Source: Candidatus Babeliales bacterium (lineage in GTDB: Bacteria > Babelota > Babeliae > Babelales > JANWKD01). From it: a DNA stretch of 64,000 nt. Numbering within the stretch: position 1 is the stretch's first letter; each line of letters opens with the position of its first letter. Below, piece by piece: positions 18,620-38,288 of the stretch. Below the pieces are notes generated by a model. That model was given only the letters and a program-made list of their open reading frames with translations, did not search any database and had not been told where the DNA came from. A program made the translations under genes and the position numbers. The stretch is taken from NCBI GenBank assembly GCA_963762115.1, contig CAVXJH010000003.1, positions 480,001-544,000 on the forward strand, read 5' to 3'.

Positions 18620-19180
18620 GACAGAAAACCCCAGGGTTTTAAACCTGGGGATGAATGTCATCAAATGCGCGAGCGAAGCAAAAATGTAAATTTTTGCGAA
18701 GTGAGGTTAGTTTTGTCATACTAATTGACATGACAAAGAAATATTGGCACGGAGCGCATACAACTCATAGGCATATGTATCATATAGTTTGGTTACCTAA
18801 ATATAGAAAAAAAGTATTAGAAGGCAAAGTTAAGAGCAGGTTAGAAGAACTTTTGCGAGAATGTGCGGAAATTAATGCATGGGAAATTCAAGAACTAAAT
18901 ATTCAGATAGACCATGTGCATCTTGTAATACAATTACCACCAAGTGTGAGTGTGAGCAAGGCCGTTCAATTACTCAAGGGAATTTCAAGTAAAATGCTCA
19001 GAGCTGAATTACCTGAAATAAAGAAATTTTTGTGGGGTAACGATTTTTGGGCAGATGGATATTTCTCTGAAACATTTGGACAATGTTCAGAAGAGACAAT
19101 TCTCAATTATGTTAGAAATCAATAAAAAGCTTTCATCTCGTGCTTCTAAATCCACGGCTTTTAAGCCGTGTGTTGTTTAA
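18620..19180 (+). mobile_element. IS200/IS605-family element (tnpA only)
   Basis: Left hairpin CCCCAGG-GTTTTAAA-CCTGGGG (18629-18650), right hairpin CACGGCTT-TT-AAGCCGTG (19153-19170) around a Y1 transposase; ends approximate. Confidence 0.85.
18730..19125 (+). CDS. tnpA: IS200-type HUH (Y1) transposase
   Basis: YHIVWLPKYR, DHVHL (HUH), KGISS, FWADGYF, YVRNQ; start set to ATG 18730. Confidence 0.92.
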   Translation: MTKKYWHGAHTTHRHMYHIVWLPKYRKKVLEGKVKSRLEELLRECAEINAWEIQELNIQIDHVHLVIQLPPSVSVSKAVQLLKGISSKMLRAELPEIKKFLWGNDFWADGYFSETFGQCSEETILNYVRNQ

Positions 19181-21148: not shown

Positions 21149-21883
21149 TTGATACCCTTTTTTTTAGCATGGGGTTCATTCCTCAATATGCTTGGGTACC
21201 GACTCATTTCACAAGAAAGCCTTCTGATTCCTCGTTCATTTTGCCCCCATTGCAAATCGATTATTGCTTGGTATGATAACATTCCTCTCATTTCATGGAT
21301 TTTGCTCAAGCACAAATGCCGAAACTGTTCTGCTCAAATCTCTTGGCTATATCCATTCATTGAATTAACAACAACAATCATCTTTTGTGCATTGCTTATC
21401 TCTATTCCCTCACATTATTGGGCAGCTTATGCCTGTTTTTTTTCAGCACTACTCATTACCATTCGCACTGACCTAGAGACAATGCTCATTTCACGCTATG
21501 CAACACTTTTTTTAATCCCCGTCGGATTCCTGTTAAGTTATTTTGAATTTTTGCCCATTTCACTTCTTGATAGTTTTTGCGGCGCATTAACTGCCTATGC
21601 ATGGCTTTATATAATTGGTTATCTTTTTTATAGAATTACCGGCAAAATAGGCCTTGGGCAAGGTGATTATGAATTAATGGCTTTTGTTGGTTCATTTTTA
21701 GGAATAATTGGCTGGTGGTTAACTTTATTAATCGGATCATTATTTGGTTCAATTGTTGGCTTAACCTATCTTGCAATCAGTGGAAAAAGTAAAGGGACCA
21801 AAATTCCTTTTGGCCCCTTTTTAGCTTTTGGTGCAATAATCTTTGTTTTTTTCGAAAAAATAATTACCAATTTCTTGTTCTAA
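21149..21883 (+). CDS. pilD: Type IV prepilin peptidase
   Basis: GSFLN, SFCPHC, YDNIPLISW, CRNC, GQGD, IPFGPFL; TTG start. Confidence 0.9.
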   Translation: MIPFFLAWGSFLNMLGYRLISQESLLIPRSFCPHCKSIIAWYDNIPLISWILLKHKCRNCSAQISWLYPFIELTTTIIFCALLISIPSHYWAAYACFFSALLITIRTDLETMLISRYATLFLIPVGFLLSYFEFLPISLLDSFCGALTAYAWLYIIGYLFYRITGKIGLGQGDYELMAFVGSFLGIIGWWLTLLIGSLFGSIVGLTYLAISGKSKGTKIPFGPFLAFGAIIFVFFEKIITNFLF

Positions 21884-21980
21884 CTTATTATTGATTCAAT
21901 CTATACTACAAAAAAAAATTTTTATTATTAAATTGCTTTATGCAGGCCAGATGCAAAATTATTTTTGTTTTTATAGTTTT

Positions 21981-22301
21981 GGCCCTATGCGGGCCAGGCA
22001 TCCTCCTACGCTTATCCACGCCTTCCGGCTTGGCAAGCTACGAAGGACAGGCAAACCTTCGCAAAGGTGCTGCAGATCGTTTAACGATTGAGATCCTAGG
22101 GAATATTTATAGATGTTTCATGGTGAAATTTTTATAAATAAGTTAGTCCGGTAGTGCGACGTGCACCTGGAATTTTGATGCTGAAGGCATCAATAATGGA
22201 ATGGTGCATATTCGCGCGGGAGAGACAATCCAACGGAACGTTGGGGCCCTTGTATCAAAGGTATTGGGCAAACAATACCTTTGTGCTGCCCGCATAGGGC
22301 C
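21981..22301. repeat. Modular hairpin repeat (family B) copy 1, MITE-like, with terminal inverted repeats
   Basis: GGCCCTATGCGGG...CCCGCATAGGGCC; largely the reverse complement of 47644-48051. Confidence 0.85.
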
Positions 22302-22328
22302 GAATGATATAAAAATAATAATAACTTA

Positions 22329-22817
22329 TCACGCAAGATCGTCTGTTACAATCTGAATATCATTATTTTGATTAACCGTCAGCACGTCAGCAACTCCATC
22401 ACCATCAATATCACCTGCCGCGGCAATAACAAAACCATCTTTATCAGCCCTTGTCCCCATTAAAGCTGAAGCTGGTGTGGCCAATTTACCGGTAAAATGG
22501 TGCTGACCTTCTTGGCCCTCACTAAAACCATAGGTATAATAAAACCGCTCTTTTTCTCCGCCACCAGAATAACCATCTGGTTTCCATCCTATGCCATTGT
22601 TACCATTTAATATGGTTGCATAGGTTCCATGTTCTGCCCAATGAGCTTTTTGAGCAACATATAAAGAACTAAGGTTCATATACGCTTCTGCACGTTTTGC
22701 TTTTGAAAAAAACCGTAAAAAGCTTGGAATTGATACCATTGAAAGAAATGCAATAATGGCAACAACAATCATTAATTCGATCAGGGTAAAACCCGACCTA
22801 TCCTTACACCTATCCAT
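22329..22817 (-). CDS. Type IV pilin
   Basis: G|FTLIELMIVVAIIAFL class III signal; AKRAEA; C-terminal GDIDGDGVADV. Confidence 0.9.
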   Translation of the reverse strand: MDRCKDRSGFTLIELMIVVAIIAFLSMVSIPSFLRFFSKAKRAEAYMNLSSLYVAQKAHWAEHGTYATILNGNNGIGWKPDGYSGGGEKERFYYTYGFSEGQEGQHHFTGKLATPASALMGTRADKDGFVIAAAGDIDGDGVADVLTVNQNNDIQIVTDDLA

Positions 22818-23174: not shown

Positions 23175-24599
23175 ATGGCAACACTTAACAAACAAACGAG
23201 TTCAGACAAAAGGTCTGGTCCGTTAGGGTCACAAAAAAATTACAATGAGATAATTGAGCTTCTCGATTCTTCTTGGTCATATACACCTTCAACAGAAAAA
23301 ACAATTGCAACCATGAAGGCTCTTGATCAAGCACTTGATTGCCCATCTAAAAAAATAGATGCAATTTTGGTAAGTGGTACAAATGGTAAAGGTTTAACGA
23401 TCCATTTTGCTACCAAATTATTACAAGAAGAAAAGATTTCATTCGGTGCTTTCTATTCACCTCATATTTTAAGCTACAACGAGCACTTTATCTTAAATAA
23501 TGAAACTATTTCAAACAAAACGTTCACCGAACTTGCTAATGAAGTAATCAATATTGCTCAGTCAAATGAGATTGCCGTAACGTCATACGAAATTCTCACC
23601 ATGATGGCAGTTTTATATTTTGCTCAAAACAATGTTGAAGTTGCTCTTCTTGAAATGAGAGAAGATAGTCCTTTTGATGCAACAGCAATTTGTCATCCAC
23701 AAGTTATTGCCGTTACCAGAATTACTGAAGAAGAATTAACACAAAAAAATGATCTTTCTGCTACCGTAATTAACAACTTACTACAATTAGTAAAACCTGG
23801 TACTCATGTTATTTCAGGTGATCAAAGCAAACTTAATTTACAATTGATGGCTGAAGCAGTCAAAAAAAATAACGGTACTTGGGCTATGCCTATCCGTAAA
23901 TTAGCTGCTCTTAAATATCCGTTTGAACAATTACACGGACGATGTGCCGCAATTGCTGAACGAATTTGTCAGATCTATGTTGATAAATTTGCTAAAGATG
24001 CAACAATTCTTGCAAATAGCTTATTAGCAAAACAAAAAGGTCAACGTGGTAGACCAACCCTAGAAGCAAAACGTGAAACTGAATTAAATCCTAAGAAAAC
24101 ATTAGAACAATTTTGGAAAGAAGAAGCAAGCACCTTGCCTGCACGCTTCCAAATTCTTGATAAAGAAAAACCAAGCATTCTTTTGGATAACGCAAGCAAT
24201 GTTGATGCGTTTACCAACCTTTTACTTGGCATCCGTCTTTTGCATTACCAACGCCCACTTAAAGGTTTAACCTTCATCTTTGGTTGTGATGCTCAGCAAA
24301 TGAACACTGAAGAGTTCTTACGACTCTTACGTTATTTCTCTAAAAAGAACTCAGGACAAATTATTTTCTGTCCTATTGAAGAACATGTTCCTGGCATTAA
24401 CGAAACATCATGGAATGTTGAACAAATAACCAATGATGTAAAAAGTCTCAAAATTAAAGCAAAATCAGCAAAAAGCTTTGAAGAAGCATTTGAGATTGCC
24501 AAAAAATCTGTTGATGAACGACATGGCCTTGTGGTTATTTCCGGTTCAAAAACAATTATTACTCAGTATTGGAAACTTAAGGGAATAAAAAAGATTTAA
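23175..24599 (+). CDS. Divergent FolC/Mur-ligase-like protein
   Basis: VSGTNGKG, FYSPH, PARFQ, LLDNASN, VVISGS; several FolC motifs degenerate. Confidence 0.7.
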   Translation: MATLNKQTSSDKRSGPLGSQKNYNEIIELLDSSWSYTPSTEKTIATMKALDQALDCPSKKIDAILVSGTNGKGLTIHFATKLLQEEKISFGAFYSPHILSYNEHFILNNETISNKTFTELANEVINIAQSNEIAVTSYEILTMMAVLYFAQNNVEVALLEMREDSPFDATAICHPQVIAVTRITEEELTQKNDLSATVINNLLQLVKPGTHVISGDQSKLNLQLMAEAVKKNNGTWAMPIRKLAALKYPFEQLHGRCAAIAERICQIYVDKFAKDATILANSLLAKQKGQRGRPTLEAKRETELNPKKTLEQFWKEEASTLPARFQILDKEKPSILLDNASNVDAFTNLLLGIRLLHYQRPLKGLTFIFGCDAQQMNTEEFLRLLRYFSKKNSGQIIFCPIEEHVPGINETSWNVEQITNDVKSLKIKAKSAKSFEEAFEIAKKSVDERHGLVVISGSKTIITQYWKLKGIKKI

Positions 24600-24602
24600 T
24601 CG

Positions 24603-24869
24603 ATGTATGTACCATCAATTATTATCGGACTCCTTTTAGGTTATAGTTATTGGCTCTCTTTGTTATTCGTAACAAAGAGAGCTTCTTTATGTACACAATC
24701 AAAAGCAAACAACATCATTATCATTACTGCACTAAGTTCCTTTGTGCGAATAGTACTCTTTGCAGGAATTTTTTATTATTTGTTGCGGCAAACAAATCTT
24801 CATCCTATACTAATACTACTTGTGTTTTTAAGCTCATTTTGGCTATTACTCTTGTTAAAGAAAGATTAA
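24603..24869 (+). CDS. atpI: ATP synthase protein I-like membrane protein
   Basis: Small 3-TM protein with SFVR motif immediately upstream of atpB. Confidence 0.55.
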   Translation: MYVPSIIIGLLLGYSYWLSLLFVTKRASLCTQSKANNIIIITALSSFVRIVLFAGIFYYLLRQTNLHPILILLVFLSSFWLLLLLKKD

Positions 24870-24875
24870 ATAGAA

Positions 24876-25622
24876 ATGGAAGGCCTCGAACTTCTTGCTG
24901 TTGAACTATGGAATCCGCTTGGTTATTTTGGCATTGATAATGAGATGCTTAAAATAAATGCTGTAACCCTTATTAATACATGGGCTGTCTTACTAATTTT
25001 ATTAATCAGCATTTTAATAGTACGAATATTTGTAACAAAGAAGAAAACATTATTCCATTTTATAGTAAAATCTGGCATACAATCTTTTATTGATCTGACC
25101 ACACAATCTCTTGGTAGTTTTTCTTATCAACATTTTGCTTTTATCACCGCACTTTTTATTTTTATAGCATATTGCAACCTCATAGCACTCATTCCTTGGC
25201 TTGAAGAGCCAACAAAAGATTTAAATACTGCATTCGCCTTAGGATGCATTTCATTTTTTTATAAAGATTATTATGCCATTAAAGTTCATGGTTTGGGCAG
25301 CTATATTAAAGAATTTTTCCAGCCTTTCTTTCTCACATTCCCCTTAAACGTTGTCGGCCATTTTTCAAAAATTGTTTCTATATCATTCCGACTTTTTGGT
25401 AATATTTTTGGCGGTTCAGTTATTGTACATATTTATAACAATGCAATCGCAGGATCCATTATCTTTGAAACATTGGGTATTATTTCTGGCCTTAATCTTC
25501 TCACCACGCTATTTTTTATTGTTTTTGAAGGTACCATCCAAGCATTTGTTTTCACCATGCTCTCATTAACCTATTTAGCAATTGCTATTCAACCGGAAGA
25601 GTCTGAAGGAGAAATAATCTAA
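24876..25622 (+). CDS. atpB: F0 ATP synthase subunit a
   Basis: PTKDLN, SISFRLFGNIFGG (essential Arg), IQAFVFTML..TY. Confidence 0.93.
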   Translation: MEGLELLAVELWNPLGYFGIDNEMLKINAVTLINTWAVLLILLISILIVRIFVTKKKTLFHFIVKSGIQSFIDLTTQSLGSFSYQHFAFITALFIFIAYCNLIALIPWLEEPTKDLNTAFALGCISFFYKDYYAIKVHGLGSYIKEFFQPFFLTFPLNVVGHFSKIVSISFRLFGNIFGGSVIVHIYNNAIAGSIIFETLGIISGLNLLTTLFFIVFEGTIQAFVFTMLSLTYLAIAIQPEESEGEII

Positions 25623-26587
25623 TGCAAGAATTCGGCGCAGCATTACATGCTCTCAGCATTCTATTTTCTGTTGGTGTCACCTCATTAGGCGTTGGCCTTG
25701 GTGGTGGCATTGCTGCTAGAGGCGCATTACATGCTCTCAACATTGCACCACAAAGTGGTCCTGAAATTTTACGCGCCATTATTATTGGTTTGGCATTAAT
25801 TGAAACAGGTGGCATTCTTGGCGTTGTTATGGGCCTCATCCTTTTACTCGGTCAATCAATGAGTGATCCTTCATTATTGTATATTGGCATCAGCGAATGT
25901 GGCATTGCATTTGCCTTGGGCATTACCGGATGCATGGTTGGCATTTATTCAGCATTGCCAGCACGGCAAGCAGCATTATCAATTGCACGACAACCGTTTT
26001 TTAGTTCAAAAGTTATTAACATTATGCTTTTAACACAATCAATTATTCAAACACCCGTTATTTTTGGCTTTCTCATTTCACTTTTCATCAAAGCACAACT
26101 TATACAAGTACATGATTTTACTCATAGTTTAAAATTGCTGGCAAGCGGTTTATGTTTGGGCATTGGCAGCATCGGCCCTGTTATCGGTCTTGCACGGTTT
26201 GCACAAGTTGCTGTTGAAAGTATTGGTAAAAACCGTGATTCATATGGTAAAGTTATGCCATTCACCTTTATTAGTCAGGCAATTATTGAAACGCCAATCA
26301 TTTTTGCTTTTGTAATTGCTATCATTTTATTAGTTTCACCTGTTGATTTTCATCATATGTCACTGTATGGCATAGGCTTTATAACAGCTGCACTTGCTAT
26401 CGGCATCGGCACCTTTGGCCCTGGTATCAGTTCAGGGAAAATAGCTTCAGCTGCATGCAAAGAAATTGCTGTTGACCCAAAAAATTCTTCATTACTCATG
26501 AAAACAAGTATTCTAGGCCAAGGAATTGTTGATGCAGCAGCAATTTATGCTTTACTCGTTTCTCTCTTGTTACTCTTGTTAAAATAG
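25622..26587 (+). CDS. atpE: F0 ATP synthase subunit c, four fused hairpins (321 aa)
   Basis: Four Gly-rich helix/loop/helix units with LIETG, IIQTP, IIETP, IVDAA; ARQP loop in unit 2; TAATG overlap with atpB. Confidence 0.85.
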   Translation: MQEFGAALHALSILFSVGVTSLGVGLGGGIAARGALHALNIAPQSGPEILRAIIIGLALIETGGILGVVMGLILLLGQSMSDPSLLYIGISECGIAFALGITGCMVGIYSALPARQAALSIARQPFFSSKVINIMLLTQSIIQTPVIFGFLISLFIKAQLIQVHDFTHSLKLLASGLCLGIGSIGPVIGLARFAQVAVESIGKNRDSYGKVMPFTFISQAIIETPIIFAFVIAIILLVSPVDFHHMSLYGIGFITAALAIGIGTFGPGISSGKIASAACKEIAVDPKNSSLLMKTSILGQGIVDAAAIYALLVSLLLLLLK

Positions 26588-26617: not shown

Positions 26618-27079
26618 ATGAATGCACTCATAAGGCCCAAAGTTGGCGTTGGCATCCTGATTATCAAAGATGATAAACTTCTTATGGGAAAAAGAAAAAA
26701 TGCTCACGGGCAAGGTACATGGGCCCCGCCAGGCGGCCATTTAGAATTTAATGAAACACCAGAAGAATGTGCAAAACGAGAAGTTTTAGAAGAAACCGGT
26801 TTACTCATTAAAAATGTTCACCGACTCACCTTCACTAATGATATTTTCTTTGACGAAAGCAAACATTATATTACTTTATATTATATTTCAGAATATTCTT
26901 CAGGCACACCTCACGTGTTAGAACCTGATAAATGCGAATCATGGGAATGGTTTTCACTTTCAAATTTGCCTACTCCTCTTTTTCTTTCATTCGAAAATTT
27001 ACTCAAACAACATGCAATACATTCCTTTGATTATCATGAAATCGCTCAAGCTTGTTATCTAAAAGATATCTCATTTTAA
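26618..27079 (+). CDS. Nudix hydrolase (MutT/NUDT15-like)
   Basis: Nudix box GGHLEFNETPEECAKREVLEETG; EPDKCESWEW. Confidence 0.9.
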   Translation: MNALIRPKVGVGILIIKDDKLLMGKRKNAHGQGTWAPPGGHLEFNETPEECAKREVLEETGLLIKNVHRLTFTNDIFFDESKHYITLYYISEYSSGTPHVLEPDKCESWEWFSLSNLPTPLFLSFENLLKQHAIHSFDYHEIAQACYLKDISF

Positions 27080-27400: not shown

Positions 27401-28537
27401 ATGGAAAAAAAGGAGCTCCAGGTACTTTATATTATCACCAAATTAGAATTGGGCGGCGCACAAAAAGTATGTTTATCACTGTTTGAAAAACTTCAAAATC
27501 TTGGCAATGCAGCCTATCTTATTTCTGGCAATGAAGGAACTTTAGTCGATCAGGTAAAAAACAAAAATAATGTTCATTTACTGCCTAATTTTAAACGTGA
27601 AATGTCTTTAAAAATAGTTTGGTCAGAACTAAAAAACTTCTTTCAACTCATCTGGCATATTCGTAATCTGCGCAAAGAAAATCCTCGACTTATTGTACAC
27701 ACCCATAGCACAAAAGCAGGCTTAATTGGCCGCTGGGCAGCATTTTTTGCACGAGTGCCAACACGCATACACACCGTGCATGGGTACCATTTTCATGATC
27801 ATCAATCATGGCCATTATGGCTTATTTCTTATCTTCTTGAATTCATTACGAGCTTTATTACGACACATTATGTGTGTGTTTCATCAGCTGACATTAACTA
27901 CGGCATCAAGTTATTACCTTTTTTTAAGAAAAAAAGCTCAATCATCCGCGCAGCCGTTGCTTGGGAACAATTTTATTTGTCTGCCAAAGTCACCACCATA
28001 CAAGATAAAAAACCTTTTGTAATCGGTACGGTTGCTTGCTTCAAAAAACAAAAAAATATTGATGAATTGTTACAAGCTTTTACTCATGCATATCAAAAAA
28101 ATAATTTGCTCAGACTTGAAATCTTAGGTGATGGCATTTTAAGAAACAGTTTTGAAGAATGGATTAATAAGCATAATCTTTCAGCGGTCATAACCCTCCA
28201 TGGTTGGCAAAAAGATGTCAGTTCATTTATGAAAATATGGCACGCTTTTGCTTTAACATCACTCTGGGAAGGATTACCATGCGCTATTATTGAAGCACGC
28301 CTTATGAAATTACCAATTCTTGCTTATAATACTGGCGGCATTCATGATGTTGTTTTTAACAATCAAAATGGCTTTTTATATGCCCAACATGATTGGCAAA
28401 CCATGGCCGATGATATGCTTAAAATAAGCAACAATAAAGAGTTATACAACCGCTTAAGTAATCACCAAGAAGATCTATTAGCGTTTCATGATAACAATAT
28501 GGTTCAAGCACATGTTGCTTTATATGCATCGTATTAA
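27401..28537 (+). CDS. Glycosyltransferase family 4
   Basis: GGAQK, HTHSTKAG, HTVHG, SLWEGLPCAIIEA. Confidence 0.9.
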   Translation: MEKKELQVLYIITKLELGGAQKVCLSLFEKLQNLGNAAYLISGNEGTLVDQVKNKNNVHLLPNFKREMSLKIVWSELKNFFQLIWHIRNLRKENPRLIVHTHSTKAGLIGRWAAFFARVPTRIHTVHGYHFHDHQSWPLWLISYLLEFITSFITTHYVCVSSADINYGIKLLPFFKKKSSIIRAAVAWEQFYLSAKVTTIQDKKPFVIGTVACFKKQKNIDELLQAFTHAYQKNNLLRLEILGDGILRNSFEEWINKHNLSAVITLHGWQKDVSSFMKIWHAFALTSLWEGLPCAIIEARLMKLPILAYNTGGIHDVVFNNQNGFLYAQHDWQTMADDMLKISNNKELYNRLSNHQEDLLAFHDNNMVQAHVALYASY

Positions 28538-34096: not shown

Positions 34097-35038
34097 ATGA
34101 AAAATATATCAAAAGTATTTATAGGTGTCGATATTTCAAAAAACACTTTAGATGTTTATATCCATCCAATAGGAAAATCTTTAAAAGTATCAAACTCAGA
34201 AGTTGGAATAACGGAGATCATTAAAGAATTAGTTAAATATGATATCGAACAAATTGCATGCGAAGCAACTGGTGGGTATGAAAAATTACTTGCTCGAATA
34301 TTAAAAAAAAATTGTTATTATCTTTGGATCATCGATCCAAGAAGAATAAAAGGCTATATTGTTGCTAGTGGCTGCAAAAGCAAAACGGATAAAATTGATG
34401 CTCGAAAAATTGCTGAATTTGCTTCTAAAAATTCTCCTGATTATGAGATAATGAACAAAAGCGAAAATCAAGAAAAATTACAAGCTTTGGTCAATCGTAA
34501 AAATGACTTGGTAAAATTTTTAGTTGCCGAAAAAACAAGATCTAAACATCCATCTCATGCATTATATGCATCAAGTATAAAGAAATTTATCAAAATCTTA
34601 GAGTGCGAAATCAAATCAATTGATTTAAAGATACAAGATTTAATTCAGCAAGATGAAAAATTAAATACAAAATCAAAAATTTTGGAGTCAATTCCAGGAA
34701 TAGGCAAAACTTCAGCTGCAACATTATTATCATTCGTTCCTGAACTTGGTCAAATAAGTAATAAAAAAGTATCAGCACTCATTGGTGTTTGTCCTTATGA
34801 GAATGAAAGTGGAAGTTATAAGGGTAAAAAATTCATCAGAGGTGGAAGAACTATTCCAAGAAATATGCTTTATATGTGTGCATTAACAACTATTAAATAT
34901 CATCTCCCATTAAAGGAACTTTACGATCGTTTAATAACTTCTAAAAAACCTTTTAAAATAGCTATCGTAGCTATTATGCATAAACTTATTGTGATTGCTA
35001 ATTCTTTACTAAAAAAAGGTGAATTATGTAAAGCTTAA
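34097..35038 (+). CDS. IS110-family DEDD recombinase/transposase
   Basis: GVDISK, CEATGGY, KTDKIDA (DEDD), SIPGIG, NESG (catalytic Ser position), GGR. Confidence 0.95.
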   Translation: MKNISKVFIGVDISKNTLDVYIHPIGKSLKVSNSEVGITEIIKELVKYDIEQIACEATGGYEKLLARILKKNCYYLWIIDPRRIKGYIVASGCKSKTDKIDARKIAEFASKNSPDYEIMNKSENQEKLQALVNRKNDLVKFLVAEKTRSKHPSHALYASSIKKFIKILECEIKSIDLKIQDLIQQDEKLNTKSKILESIPGIGKTSAATLLSFVPELGQISNKKVSALIGVCPYENESGSYKGKKFIRGGRTIPRNMLYMCALTTIKYHLPLKELYDRLITSKKPFKIAIVAIMHKLIVIANSLLKKGELCKA

Positions 35039-35705: not shown

Positions 35706-38288
35706 GTGAAGAAACATATTATTTTCTTAACCATTTTTCTTATCATTGCCAATTCATTACCCATGTATTCAATGGAAACTGATGAGTTAGATATACGAGC
35801 AAAAGTTGAAAAATTAATAATCGAAGATGATCTTGATGCGCTCATTGATGATGTCACACCATTAATTTTTGCCGTTCAACAAAATGACCTTGATCTTATG
35901 CATCGACTTATTGCATTTGGTGCTAATGTTAATGCGCAAGCTTTAAATGGTTCAACGGCATTATTAGAAGCAGTAAAAATGTATGAGACAGCCAATAATT
36001 TCAATGTTATTAACTATTTGGTTAGTTGTGGTGCTCGAAATGATATTGAAGATGAAAAAGGGGAAACTGCTCTTTTTGTTGCTCGAGATTCTGGGTTTAA
36101 TGAAGTTGTAGAATTTTTGTTACCTCAAAACAATGTGAGTGTTCAAGGAAATGCAACACCATTGATACATGATGATTCGGAAGAAACAGAAAAACAATCT
36201 GATATAAAACAGACTGAAAAAGGAAAAGAAAAAGAGTCTCAAGAAGATAAAAAATCTAAAAAGACAAAAAAGCAAATTTTAGCAACTATGATTAAAAAAC
36301 CGATAAGGGTTATTGAATCAGGGGTAAAAGCTAGTTATTATGCTTCTCTTCATTATCTTCATCAAAAAAATGCTGATTATCAAAAAAGAGCATTAAGAAA
36401 ATATCTTAAAAATATAAAAAAACAATCGCAAATTAATGATAGATATTCACCATTGATAGCGGCAGTTAAAAATAATGATCTTGAAACGGTAATAACATTA
36501 CTTAGTGACCCAATGACAGATGTTAATATGAAAGATCATACAGAATGGACGGCCTTAGCAACTGCAATACATCAAGGTAATTTAAAAATTGTAGAAGTAT
36601 TGGTTAATCATAAAGGAATAATTCTTGATGCGCCAAGTTCTTCTAGATGCTGGACAGCATTAATGGAAGCTATTTTTACTCAAAATGTTGAAATTGTAAA
36701 ACTTTTAATAGAAAAAGGAGCCAATATCAATGCTGTAAACAATCTTGGAGTAACAGTTTTGATACTTGCTGTTTGGCATGGAACTCCTGAAATAATTGAC
36801 TTACTTTTAAGTTTTAATGCCGATGAAGATAAAAAATTAAATATTAATAATAAAAACACTTCAGGCTATACTGCTTTATTTTATGCAGCTCAAAGAAATA
36901 ATTTAGATTTGGTCAAGAAATTAATAAATCTTGGTGCAATTATTGAAAATGAATCTATGGAAACTAGCCCTCTAAATCCGATTCATAAAAGTAATAAAAA
37001 TACTAATCAAGAAATTAATAAAGAAATAGTAGAGTTTTTGAGAGAAGCATTTGAAGAAAGAAGTAAAAAAGAATCTGCTCAAAATATTTTTGAAGGAAAA
37101 ATTGAGGAAAAACAAGAAATTTCTCAAGCAAAACCTAAAAAAGTAATGCAATCTGAGCTTGCATCAAAGCTTTTACGTGCACTGAAAAATGGTGATCTTG
37201 CTACGATTCAAGATGCAATTGCAAAAGGTGTTGATATTAATCTTGCATTAAATGAATATGGTGACACTTTATTTATTCTTGCAATTGATAATAAAAAAAT
37301 TAATATTGCTCAATGGTTAATTGAAGCAGGTTCTGATATTAATAAAAGTAATAATGATGAGATAACACCATTGCTATTGGCTATGGCAAATGAAGAGCCT
37401 AAAATTATTCAATGGTTACTTGAAATTCCTGGTATTGATGCTAATAAACCTACTGATGAAGGAGTTACCCCATTGATAGCGGCTATAGCAAATAAAAAGT
37501 ATAAAATTGTTCAATGGTTACTTGAGACTCCTGGTATTGATGTTAATAAAGCCCATAGCAATGGAGTTACTCCATTGTTAAGGGCTATAGCAGATAAAGA
37601 GCATAAAATTGTTCAATGGTTACTTGAAACTCCTGGTATTGATGTTAATAAAGCCAATAATAATGGAGTAACTCCATTGCTATGGGCTATAGCAAATAAA
37701 GAGTTTAAAATTGTTCAGTGGTTACTTGAAACTCCTGGTATTGATGTTAATAAAGCCAATAATAATGGAGTAACTCCATTGCTATGGGCTATAGCAAATA
37801 AAGAGTTTAAAATTGTTCAGTGGTTACTTGAAACTCCTGGTATTGATGTTAATAAAGCTAATAATAATGGAGTAACTCCATTAATGAAAGCTATAGTTAT
37901 TGAAGAATTTGTGATTGCGCGCTTATTAATTACTAAGGGTGCAAATGTCAACGCTCTAAATAATTATGAAGCCTCAGCCCTAGTATGTGCTTTTTGTCAC
38001 ATAAACAATATTGGATTTTGCAATGACCATATATCTTTCATCTTCTTATTGATTGCACATGGGGCTGATGTAAACATTTCATGTATAATTAATGATAAAA
38101 AAACAACAATATTACAATGTGTGGTTGAAAATGGATGGATTAGCCTGCTCGAAAGTATTCTTAATTGCCAAACAGTTGATAAAATGAAAATTCGCGAATG
38201 GGCAATAGCAAGCAATAATAGAAAAGTAATCAATTTTTTAGATAAAAAAGAGGATTTAGATAAAAAAGAACGTTGTATAATAAGTTAA
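35706..38288 (+). CDS. Secreted ankyrin-repeat protein with C-terminal CaaX (860 aa)
   Basis: GTG start with AAGGAG; signal peptide ...PMYS-ME; many TPL..A repeats; ends KKERCIIS. Confidence 0.9.
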   Translation: MKKHIIFLTIFLIIANSLPMYSMETDELDIRAKVEKLIIEDDLDALIDDVTPLIFAVQQNDLDLMHRLIAFGANVNAQALNGSTALLEAVKMYETANNFNVINYLVSCGARNDIEDEKGETALFVARDSGFNEVVEFLLPQNNVSVQGNATPLIHDDSEETEKQSDIKQTEKGKEKESQEDKKSKKTKKQILATMIKKPIRVIESGVKASYYASLHYLHQKNADYQKRALRKYLKNIKKQSQINDRYSPLIAAVKNNDLETVITLLSDPMTDVNMKDHTEWTALATAIHQGNLKIVEVLVNHKGIILDAPSSSRCWTALMEAIFTQNVEIVKLLIEKGANINAVNNLGVTVLILAVWHGTPEIIDLLLSFNADEDKKLNINNKNTSGYTALFYAAQRNNLDLVKKLINLGAIIENESMETSPLNPIHKSNKNTNQEINKEIVEFLREAFEERSKKESAQNIFEGKIEEKQEISQAKPKKVMQSELASKLLRALKNGDLATIQDAIAKGVDINLALNEYGDTLFILAIDNKKINIAQWLIEAGSDINKSNNDEITPLLLAMANEEPKIIQWLLEIPGIDANKPTDEGVTPLIAAIANKKYKIVQWLLETPGIDVNKAHSNGVTPLLRAIADKEHKIVQWLLETPGIDVNKANNNGVTPLLWAIANKEFKIVQWLLETPGIDVNKANNNGVTPLLWAIANKEFKIVQWLLETPGIDVNKANNNGVTPLMKAIVIEEFVIARLLITKGANVNALNNYEASALVCAFCHINNIGFCNDHISFIFLLIAHGADVNISCIINDKKTTILQCVVENGWISLLESILNCQTVDKMKIREWAIASNNRKVINFLDKKEDLDKKERCIIS
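37401..37882 (+). repeat. 102-bp tandem repeat, about 4.7 copies (34-aa ankyrin unit)
   Basis: AAAATT(A/G)TTCA(A/G)TGGTTACTTGA at 37401, 37503, 37605, 37707, 37809. Confidence 0.95.

What the first reader, a model, noticed from the sequence alone, without database searches (positions are those of the whole stretch)
25622..26587. F-type ATP synthase c subunit with four fused hairpins, one lacking the ion-binding carboxylate
Seen: 321 aa with four c repeats; the conserved acidic position reads E, Q, E, D. No single-hairpin atpE is adjacent. Established: bacterial c is normally one hairpin; fused c subunits with lost sites occur in V/A-type enzymes and Acetobacterium woodii c1 and lower the ion/ATP ratio. 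Inference: a ring of 8 or 12 hairpins with only 6 or 9 sites, favouring ATP-driven ion pumping, which would suit a parasite importing host ATP.
Basis: partly seen in the sequence, partly recalled or inferred. Interest (0 to 1): 0.75.

Follow-up and report, generated by a model that had tools for sequence, protein, structure and literature searches.

The report
Four-hairpin rotor subunit, mixed ring
This ATP-importing parasitic bacterium (Dependentiae) encodes an ATPase rotor protein made of four fused units, one lacking its ion-binding acid, which likely shares a mixed ring with an ordinary single-unit rotor protein whose gene likely sits in an assembly gap here, and its inner units may carry protons where the ordinary units are predicted to carry sodium.

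Summary
Observation confirmed: 25622-26587 encodes 321 aa with four c-subunit hairpins, acid positions E61/Q143/E223/D304. The organism is a Dependentiae (Babelota) ATP parasite. The proposed 8- or 12-hairpin ring of this protein alone is not supported. A second, single-hairpin atpE heads the b'-b-delta-alpha operon in 65 of 65 relatives examined. In this genome it most likely falls in a ~0.9 kb gap between contigs C7 and C5, which an 84%-identical contig bridges and which there carries the gene. Best reading: an Acetobacterium woodii-like mixed ring run as an ATP-driven pump. The Gln is lineage-specific; one deep branch keeps Glu. New here: none of the three inner interfaces has a full sodium site (0 of 85 proteins). 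Two of them keep acids at Pro/Phe faces that are acid-free in 97 of 102 cases in related multi-hairpin proteins, so they may be proton sites in an otherwise sodium-type rotor. I found no paper describing it. The scan found this family before on other DNA.

The parts
25622..26587 (+). atpE1: four-hairpin F-type c subunit (c1), 321 aa
25661..25843 (+). Hairpin 1. E61 (codon 25802-25804) is the only acid kept in 85 of 85 proteins. Its Gln32-equivalent is Gly28 here (Q/E in 62 of 85). Predicted to pair with the preceding ring subunit.
25901..26089 (+). Hairpin 2. Q143 (26048-26050) replaces the carboxylate. Its partner face is T144, P145, F148.
26138..26329 (+). Hairpin 3. E223 (26288-26290), with Leu190 at the Gln32-equivalent. 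Its partner face is T224, P225, F228.
26381..26572 (+). Hairpin 4. D304 (26531-26533). Y309 is kept (81 of 85) on the outward face predicted to serve the next subunit's Glu.
24876..25622 (+). atpB, subunit a (248 aa). R174 and Q224 are invariant in 84 of 84. Its stop overlaps the c1 start.
24603..24869 (+). 88-aa membrane ORF before atpB, AtpI/AtpR-like by position (weak TIGR03165 match, E 0.0018, below cut-off). A similar ORF was picked in 76 of 85 loci.

Best explanation
This gene encodes a four-hairpin c subunit (c1) of the organism's single F-type ATPase, which likely sits, probably as one copy, in a mixed ring with ordinary single-hairpin c subunits (c2) encoded in a second operon, and the enzyme likely burns imported ATP to pump ions out and energise the membrane. 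Shown: the four hairpins and their residues; one set of a, delta, alpha, beta and gamma; c2 in relatives; no respiratory oxidase found. Inferred: the mixed ring, the 1:n ratio and the direction. c1's two outward faces look like halves of a normal c-c site (hairpin 1 always keeps its acid, hairpin 4 keeps Tyr), so it can dock between c2 subunits. Its three inner interfaces lack a full Na+ site. One is blind in this lineage and two keep carboxylates that would most simply carry H+. The site count drops by about one per ring (for example 10 of 11 hairpins, about 3.3 ions per ATP), not to 6 of 8.
For: Two c loci occur in 242 of 251 phylum genomes; among the 189 that are >=90% complete, only this one shows a single locus. 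A single-hairpin c2 was found in 65 of 65 genomes examined; b' lies in 58 and delta in 63 of these 65 loci. C7 ends inside the dNK gene and C5 starts inside atpF. Contig L229 is 84% identical to both ends and carries c2 and b' between them. One alpha, one beta, one gamma and no V-type subunit I were found. atpB overlaps the c1 start in 47 of 84 loci, which fits 1:1 production with subunit a. The gene order atpI-like, a, c1 | c2, b', b, delta, alpha parallels the atpE1/atpE2 arrangement of A. woodii and C. aceticum (PMC7911925). Best sequence and fold match is A. woodii c1, 4bem_J. Outer faces are kept: hairpin 1 acid 85 of 85, hairpin 4 Tyr 81 of 85. c2 meets the Na+ motif fully in 33 and nearly in 13 of 65. 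Na+/alanine symporters are in 21 of 21 genomes and SSF transporters in 18 of 21.
Against: No binding or structure of c1 with c2 was obtained. Kept outer faces would also suit a c1-only ring. c1 and c2 are in separate operons, unlike A. woodii. c2 was not seen in this genome's own DNA. In this genome both outer faces have lost a Na+ ligand (G28, A305), and 19 of 65 c2 fail the Na+ motif, so the ion may be H+ throughout. Ring size is unknown. A hybrid ring can still synthesise ATP (PMC9171764), and a membrane pyrophosphatase is present that could drive it.
Confidence: 0.62

Rival explanations
1. One reading: c1 alone forms the ring from two or three copies (8 or 12 hairpins, 6 or 9 sites) as a steep-gear pump.
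For: No single-hairpin atpE in the assembly. The faces of hairpins 1 and 4 could pair with each other. c1 is co-encoded with subunit a.
Against: c2 is in 65 of 65 relatives examined, heads the b'-b-delta-alpha operon and is the most conserved unit (51% between genomes vs 33-44% for c1 hairpins). The gap in this genome is bridged by a contig carrying c2. With one a and one F1 set, c2 would have no other use.
Confidence: 0.07
2. Two alternative homo-rings: a c1-only ring (H+, low ratio) and a c2-only ring (Na+), swapped on one stator, for example between intracellular and free stages.
For: The two genes are in separate operons and could be regulated apart. c1's inner sites lack Na+ ligands while c2's mostly have them.
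Against: No such switching is known to me. The closest characterised relative is a fixed 9:1 heteromer (PMC9171764, PMC3604715). c1 is translationally tied to the single subunit a.
Confidence: 0.13
3. Mixed ring, but c1 is mainly a structural piece that nucleates the ring or fixes its size and curvature. All working sites carry H+, and c2's Na+ motif is a fading relic.
For: 16 of 85 c1 keep four acids and 5 keep only two, so the site count is not conserved while the fusion is. 19 of 65 c2 fail the Na+ motif. PMC6561590 assumes proton export. Na+ enzymes move H+ when Na+ is absent (PMC2359735).
Against: 46 of 65 c2 keep a full or near-full Na+ motif across families. Na+-coupled transporter families are widespread.
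Confidence: 0.18

Closest known systems
Acetobacterium woodii c1 (AtpE1) in the F/V-hybrid Na+ ring c1(c2/3)9, PDB 4BEM; Clostridium aceticum c1/c2
   Same: F-type enzyme with a fused c gene after atpB plus a single-hairpin c gene before atpF; first hairpin Glu, second Gln; last hairpin keeps Tyr. Best hit by sequence (E 3e-13) and fold.
   Different: Four hairpins, not two. Hairpins are only 21-26% identical to each other vs 58% in C. aceticum (PMC7911925). Extra acids at inner interfaces without Na+ ligands. Genes split over several loci. The host is an ATP parasite, not an acetogen that needs the enzyme to make ATP.
Three- to six-hairpin F-type c subunits of Desulfobacterota-type bacteria (database proteins, e.g. 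MFN3534313.1; no characterisation found)
   Same: Multi-hairpin F-type c with a Gln-Thr-Pro...Phe blind hairpin, first hairpin mostly acidic (44 of 61) and last hairpin with Tyr (59 of 61).
   Different: There, acids follow Tyr-bearing faces (17 of 20) and almost never Pro faces (5 of 102). Dependentiae put acids after Pro faces (74 of 79 and 79 of 82). Common origin of the four-fold repeat is not resolved.
Archaeal A-type multi-hairpin c (Methanocaldococcus jannaschii 3, Methanopyrus kandleri 13) and V-type K/c (Enterococcus hirae, PDB 2BL2)
   Same: Hairpin multiplication, with loss of sites in several cases (PMC2359735, PMC9171764).
   Different: Those are A/V-type enzymes. This genome has F-type alpha, beta, gamma and a, and no V-type subunit I was found.

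Membership tests
F-type ATP synthase subunit c (PF00137) | Helical hairpin unit(s) matching PF00137 | tested here: met
   4 stretches, E 2.6e-30; model with four hairpins
F-type ATP synthase subunit c (PF00137) | Genome holds F-type a with the essential Arg, b, delta, alpha, beta, gamma | tested here: met
   the 5' end of b and all of b' fall in the contig gap
F-type ATP synthase subunit c (PF00137) | One hairpin with one carboxylate per polypeptide (canonical form) | tested here: not met
   Four hairpins, E/Q/E/D
A. woodii-type hybrid rotor c1 | Fused c gene directly after atpB in an F-type system | tested here: met
   84 of 85 loci; the other is cut by a contig end
A. woodii-type hybrid rotor c1 | A single-hairpin c gene in the same genome | tested here: met
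   65 of 65 relatives. For this genome inferred from the bridged gap, not seen directly.
A. woodii-type hybrid rotor c1 | Exactly two hairpins with one Na+ site | tested here: not met
   Four hairpins, three acids
A. woodii-type hybrid rotor c1 | Both c genes in one operon | tested here: not met
   Separate loci in the 65 genomes examined
A. woodii-type hybrid rotor c1 | c1 and c2 physically in one ring | not tested
Na+-coupled c-ring | Gln/Glu32 + Glu65 with Ser/Thr66, polar 67 and Tyr70 of the neighbour (PMC2359735, PMC3692424) | tested here: inconclusive
   c2: full 33, near-full 13, not met 19 of 65. c1 inner interfaces: 0 of 85 complete. This genome's c1 outer faces lack one ligand each.
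A/V-type ATPase subunit K | Part of an A/V-type enzyme (subunit I, A, B) | tested here: not met
   No PF01496 match; F-type models score above V-type K models
N-type ATPase | Second ATPase operon lacking delta; alt_F1F0 models above cut-off | tested here: not met
   Single enzyme with delta present; TIGR03322, TIGR03306 and TIGR03324 below cut-off, TIGR00962 above

The most novel reading that the evidence does not exclude
Dependentiae build a rotor with two kinds of ion site written into the genes: Na+ sites between the ordinary c2 subunits, and H+ sites re-armed inside the four-hairpin c1, where carboxylates sit at Pro/Phe faces that are blind spacers in related proteins. One ATP-driven motor would then export Na+ and H+ in a fixed ratio, giving a respiration-less parasite both gradients from stolen ATP, and lineages would tune the ratio by single Glu/Gln switches.
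Probability: 0.22. Interest if true: 0.85.

Novelty: new variant of a known kind. Interest (0 to 1): 0.58.

Why it matters
The number and chemistry of ion sites on the c-ring set the gear ratio and ion choice of rotary ATPases. The only characterised mixed F-type ring I found has a two-hairpin partner (A. woodii). A four-hairpin partner fixed across a whole phylum of ATP parasites, with natural two-, three- and four-acid variants, is a ready-made series for testing how blind or remodelled sites turn a synthase into a pump, and whether one ring can hold sites of different selectivity. A cultured strain (Noda2021, AP025250, an amoeba parasite) has both genes, so the test is feasible.

Tried and rejected
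1) c1-only ring: rejected as the main reading. 2) Frameshift or fusion artefact: rejected; the full-length form is in 85 genome loci and 120 homologues. 3) Origin by doubling a two-hairpin E,Q gene: no 1~3 / 2~4 signal in identities, and the trees do not show it. 4) Shared four-fold origin with Desulfobacterota-type proteins: only hairpin 2 gives a partial position match (18 of 34), hairpin 4 scores are generic, and the tree gives no position-wise pairing; unresolved. 5) Recovering c2 from sequencing runs: no RNA holder listed. Contigs of 4 runs laid on the C5 start; one ran only about 37 nt past it. Uninformative. 6) Complex prediction of c1 with c2 was not available, so binding was not modelled. 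7) Ion type from the pyrophosphatase: it passes both a 'sodium-translocating' and an H+ model and has Ala at the position I recall as marking K+ dependence; inconclusive. 8) The 88-aa ORF could not be assigned: only the window copy hit TIGR03165, weakly (1 of 7). 9) Matthies 2014 and Brandt & Muller 2015 are not held. The latter surveys hybrid rotors and could mention such proteins; I know it only from recall. 10) Literature: no paper held both 'Dependentiae' and 'atpE'; two held 'Babelota' and 'ATPase', one checked by passages and irrelevant, the other seen as listing only. Supplements were not read and bioRxiv supplements are closed; that of 10.64898/2026.10.01.756066 may list these proteins.

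Full report
OBSERVATION. The ORF at 25622-26587 (+) is 321 aa. It has four PF00137 domains and folds as four hairpins in AlphaFold2 (pLDDT 94.7, 42-sequence alignment). The acid position reads E61, Q143, E223, D304. Upstream are atpB, whose stop overlaps the start by 1 nt, and an 88-aa membrane ORF; downstream is a Nudix gene. The best solved relative by sequence and by fold is A. woodii c1, 4bem_J. Among the fold hits listed, the c/K subunits cover only about two of the four hairpins.

ORGANISM AND ENZYME. Named relatives are Candidatus Dependentiae / Babeliales. The genome (1.53 Mb, 7 contigs, 95% complete) has three TLC ATP/ADP translocase ORFs, one alpha (C5), one beta (C6) and one gamma (C7) (a third, weaker PF00006 match was not examined). 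No COX1, bd oxidase, Proton_antipo_M or V-type subunit I was found. It has a membrane pyrophosphatase. Passages of PMC4776705 and PMC6561590 already propose that this ATPase runs in reverse on imported ATP. The passages I saw, and those of PMC4378268, do not mention the c subunit.

THE MISSING ORDINARY c GENE. In the assembly, all 4 PF00137 matches lie in this ORF. Searching 251 phylum genomes with the protein gave two or more loci in 242, one in 7 and none in 2; of the 189 genomes at least 90% complete, only this one has a single locus (counted from the table; one search agrees, mostly 5 domains). I fetched the loci for 65 genomes from all 21 family labels. All 65 have a single-hairpin c2 of 78-93 aa; 64 have a whole c1 and one is cut by a contig end. 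c2 loci hold b' in 58, delta in 63 and an upstream dNK gene in 43 of 65. Here, contig C7 ends inside dNK and C5 begins at about residue 45 of b, followed by delta and alpha. Metagenome contig L229 is 84% identical to both ends and carries c2 and b' in the ~0.9 kb between them. The cultured strain Noda2021 has both genes (PMC8812299, whole text read).

CONSERVATION. I aligned 85 c1 proteins: 64 from the spread set, 20 more best hits (biased to close kin) and this one. Hairpin 1 has E/D in 85; hairpin 2 has Q 61, E 19, other 5; hairpin 3 has E 80; hairpin 4 has D/E 82. EQED occurs in 46; four acids in 16, three in 64, two in 5. On a subunit-a tree, all 18 included rows with Glu in hairpin 2 lie on one side of a long branch (support 100, with one Gly row); the root is unknown. 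Hairpins are 21-26% identical to each other but 33-44% to the same position in other genomes. They cluster by position: h2 and h3 form single groups, and all four do (few columns, SH-aLRT only). The four-fold repeat is therefore older than the sampled order. Subunit a keeps its Arg in 84 of 84, and its stop overlaps the c1 start in 47 of 84.

SITE ANATOMY. In Na+ rings, Glu65 and Gln/Glu32 of one hairpin pair with Val63 O, Ser66, Thr67 and Tyr70 of the neighbour; in the two-hairpin E. hirae K subunit the partner is the preceding hairpin (passages of PMC2359735 and PMC3692424). Applied to c1, the outward faces look c2-compatible: hairpin 1 has Glu plus Q/E32 in 58 of 85, and hairpin 4 has S/T plus Tyr in 64 and Tyr in 81. 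None of the three inner interfaces has a full Na+ set (0 of 85 each). c2 meets the published motif (10.64898/2026.10.01.756066, passages) fully in 33, nearly in 13 and not in 19 of 65. In this genome both outer faces lack one ligand (G28, A305), which argues against a clean Na+ reading.

As a control I took multi-hairpin c proteins from outside the group, a lead from earlier findings. Of 97 proteins examined (85 new hits and 12), I kept 61 and dropped Dependentiae-like ones, two fragments, a 13-hairpin and a distinct 5-hairpin protein. Only a few have names (Desulfatiglandales, Desulfobacteraceae, Thermodesulfobacteriota). In these, an acid follows a Tyr face in 17 of 20 interfaces, a non-Tyr face in 8 of 152, and a Pro face in 5 of 102 (sequences are related, so the p-value overstates). 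Dependentiae break that rule: acids follow Pro faces in 74 of 79 (h2|h3) and 79 of 82 (h3|h4). Inference: these conserved carboxylates are not standard Na+ sites. An acid must be neutralised to enter the bilayer, so they are most simply H+ sites. The Pro would leave the residue-63 carbonyl free to accept a hydrogen bond from a Gln or a protonated acid (reasoning, not computed).

MECHANISM. Best reading (0.62): a mixed c1(c2)n ring, probably one c1 per enzyme, pumping ions with imported ATP. The known model is the 9:1 A. woodii ring with 10 sites in 11 hairpins (PMC9171764 and PMC3604715, passages); C. aceticum has the same atpE1/atpE2 order (PMC7911925, passages). The gear change is modest, and absent in four-acid lineages if all acids work. 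Na+-coupled transporter families give a use for a Na+ gradient (21 of 21 and 18 of 21 genomes). Against: the ring was not modelled or seen; hybrid rings can still make ATP (PMC9171764); the genes are not in one operon. Rivals: c1-only ring (0.07), alternative rings (0.13), structural c1 in an all-H+ ring (0.18).

NOVELTY. It works like A. woodii c1 but fails two defining features (two hairpins, one operon), so it is a variant, not a member. The multi-hairpin lists I saw name archaeal A-type subunits with 1, 2, 3 or 13 hairpins (PMC9171764, PMC2359735). Ten searches and passages of PMC10656485, PMC7594442 and the 2026 preprint gave no description of a four-hairpin F-type c or of this Dependentiae gene. 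Two key papers and all supplements were not seen. Four-hairpin F-type c subunits are not unique to this phylum. The scan has reported this family from other genomes.

VERDICT. Observation confirmed; interpretation partly supported; new variant of a known kind; interest 0.58. The mixed Na+/H+ rotor has probability 0.22 and would deserve 0.85.

Noticed in passing
G000 contigs C7 end and C5 start; L229:570-1502: The two contigs are probably adjacent, separated by a ~0.9 kb gap holding the end of dNK, atpE2, atpF' and the start of atpF.
   Followed up: yes
G000:C7:1-5000: The first 5 kb of C7 is 56-68% GC against about 35% for the genome and encodes rpoC-like text; probably foreign or chimeric sequence. 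The far end of C4 also looks GC-rich.
   Followed up: partly
G000:C3 end and C6 end: The last ~900 nt of C3 and C6 are 97.6% identical in opposite orientation: a duplicated gene or an assembly join.
   Followed up: partly
window 24603-24869: Conserved small membrane ORF before atpB with a conserved Arg; AtpI/AtpR-like by position, family unassigned. AtpI is described as an assembly factor in A. woodii/C. aceticum (PMC7911925).
   Followed up: partly
window 23175-24599 and 27401-28537: A Mur-ligase-domain (FolC-like) gene upstream and a GT4 glycosyltransferase downstream recur in 58 and 57 of 85 c1 loci. The Nudix gene at 26618-27079 is a local insertion (2 of 85).
   Followed up: partly
P0324 (968 aa), P0304 (434 aa), P0171/P0173 (485-487 aa): Database c-subunit proteins with 13, 5 and 6 hairpins; the 13-hairpin one keeps Glu in every hairpin.
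   Followed up: partly
P0211, P0217, P0239-P0254 (non-Dependentiae rows), P0209: Three- and four-hairpin c proteins with no carboxylate in any hairpin (patterns S/Q/Q, S/Q/H, G/Q/Q/Q): pure spacers.
   Followed up: partly
L232:1423-1719 and L199: In strain Noda2021, c2 lacks the Tyr and polar residues after Glu-Thr, and c1 hairpin 1 has Gly after its Glu: this strain may be H+-coupled.
   Followed up: no
G000:C6:91739-92905: One of two Na+/alanine symporter matches has a TAA stop inside; the same flag appears in several relatives, so it may be an alignment overrun.
   Followed up: no
window 18655-19125, 34097-35038, 21149-22817, 35706-38288: IS200-like and IS110 transposases, a prepilin peptidase with an N-methyl pilin gene, and a long ankyrin-repeat-like ORF (by eye).
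   Followed up: no
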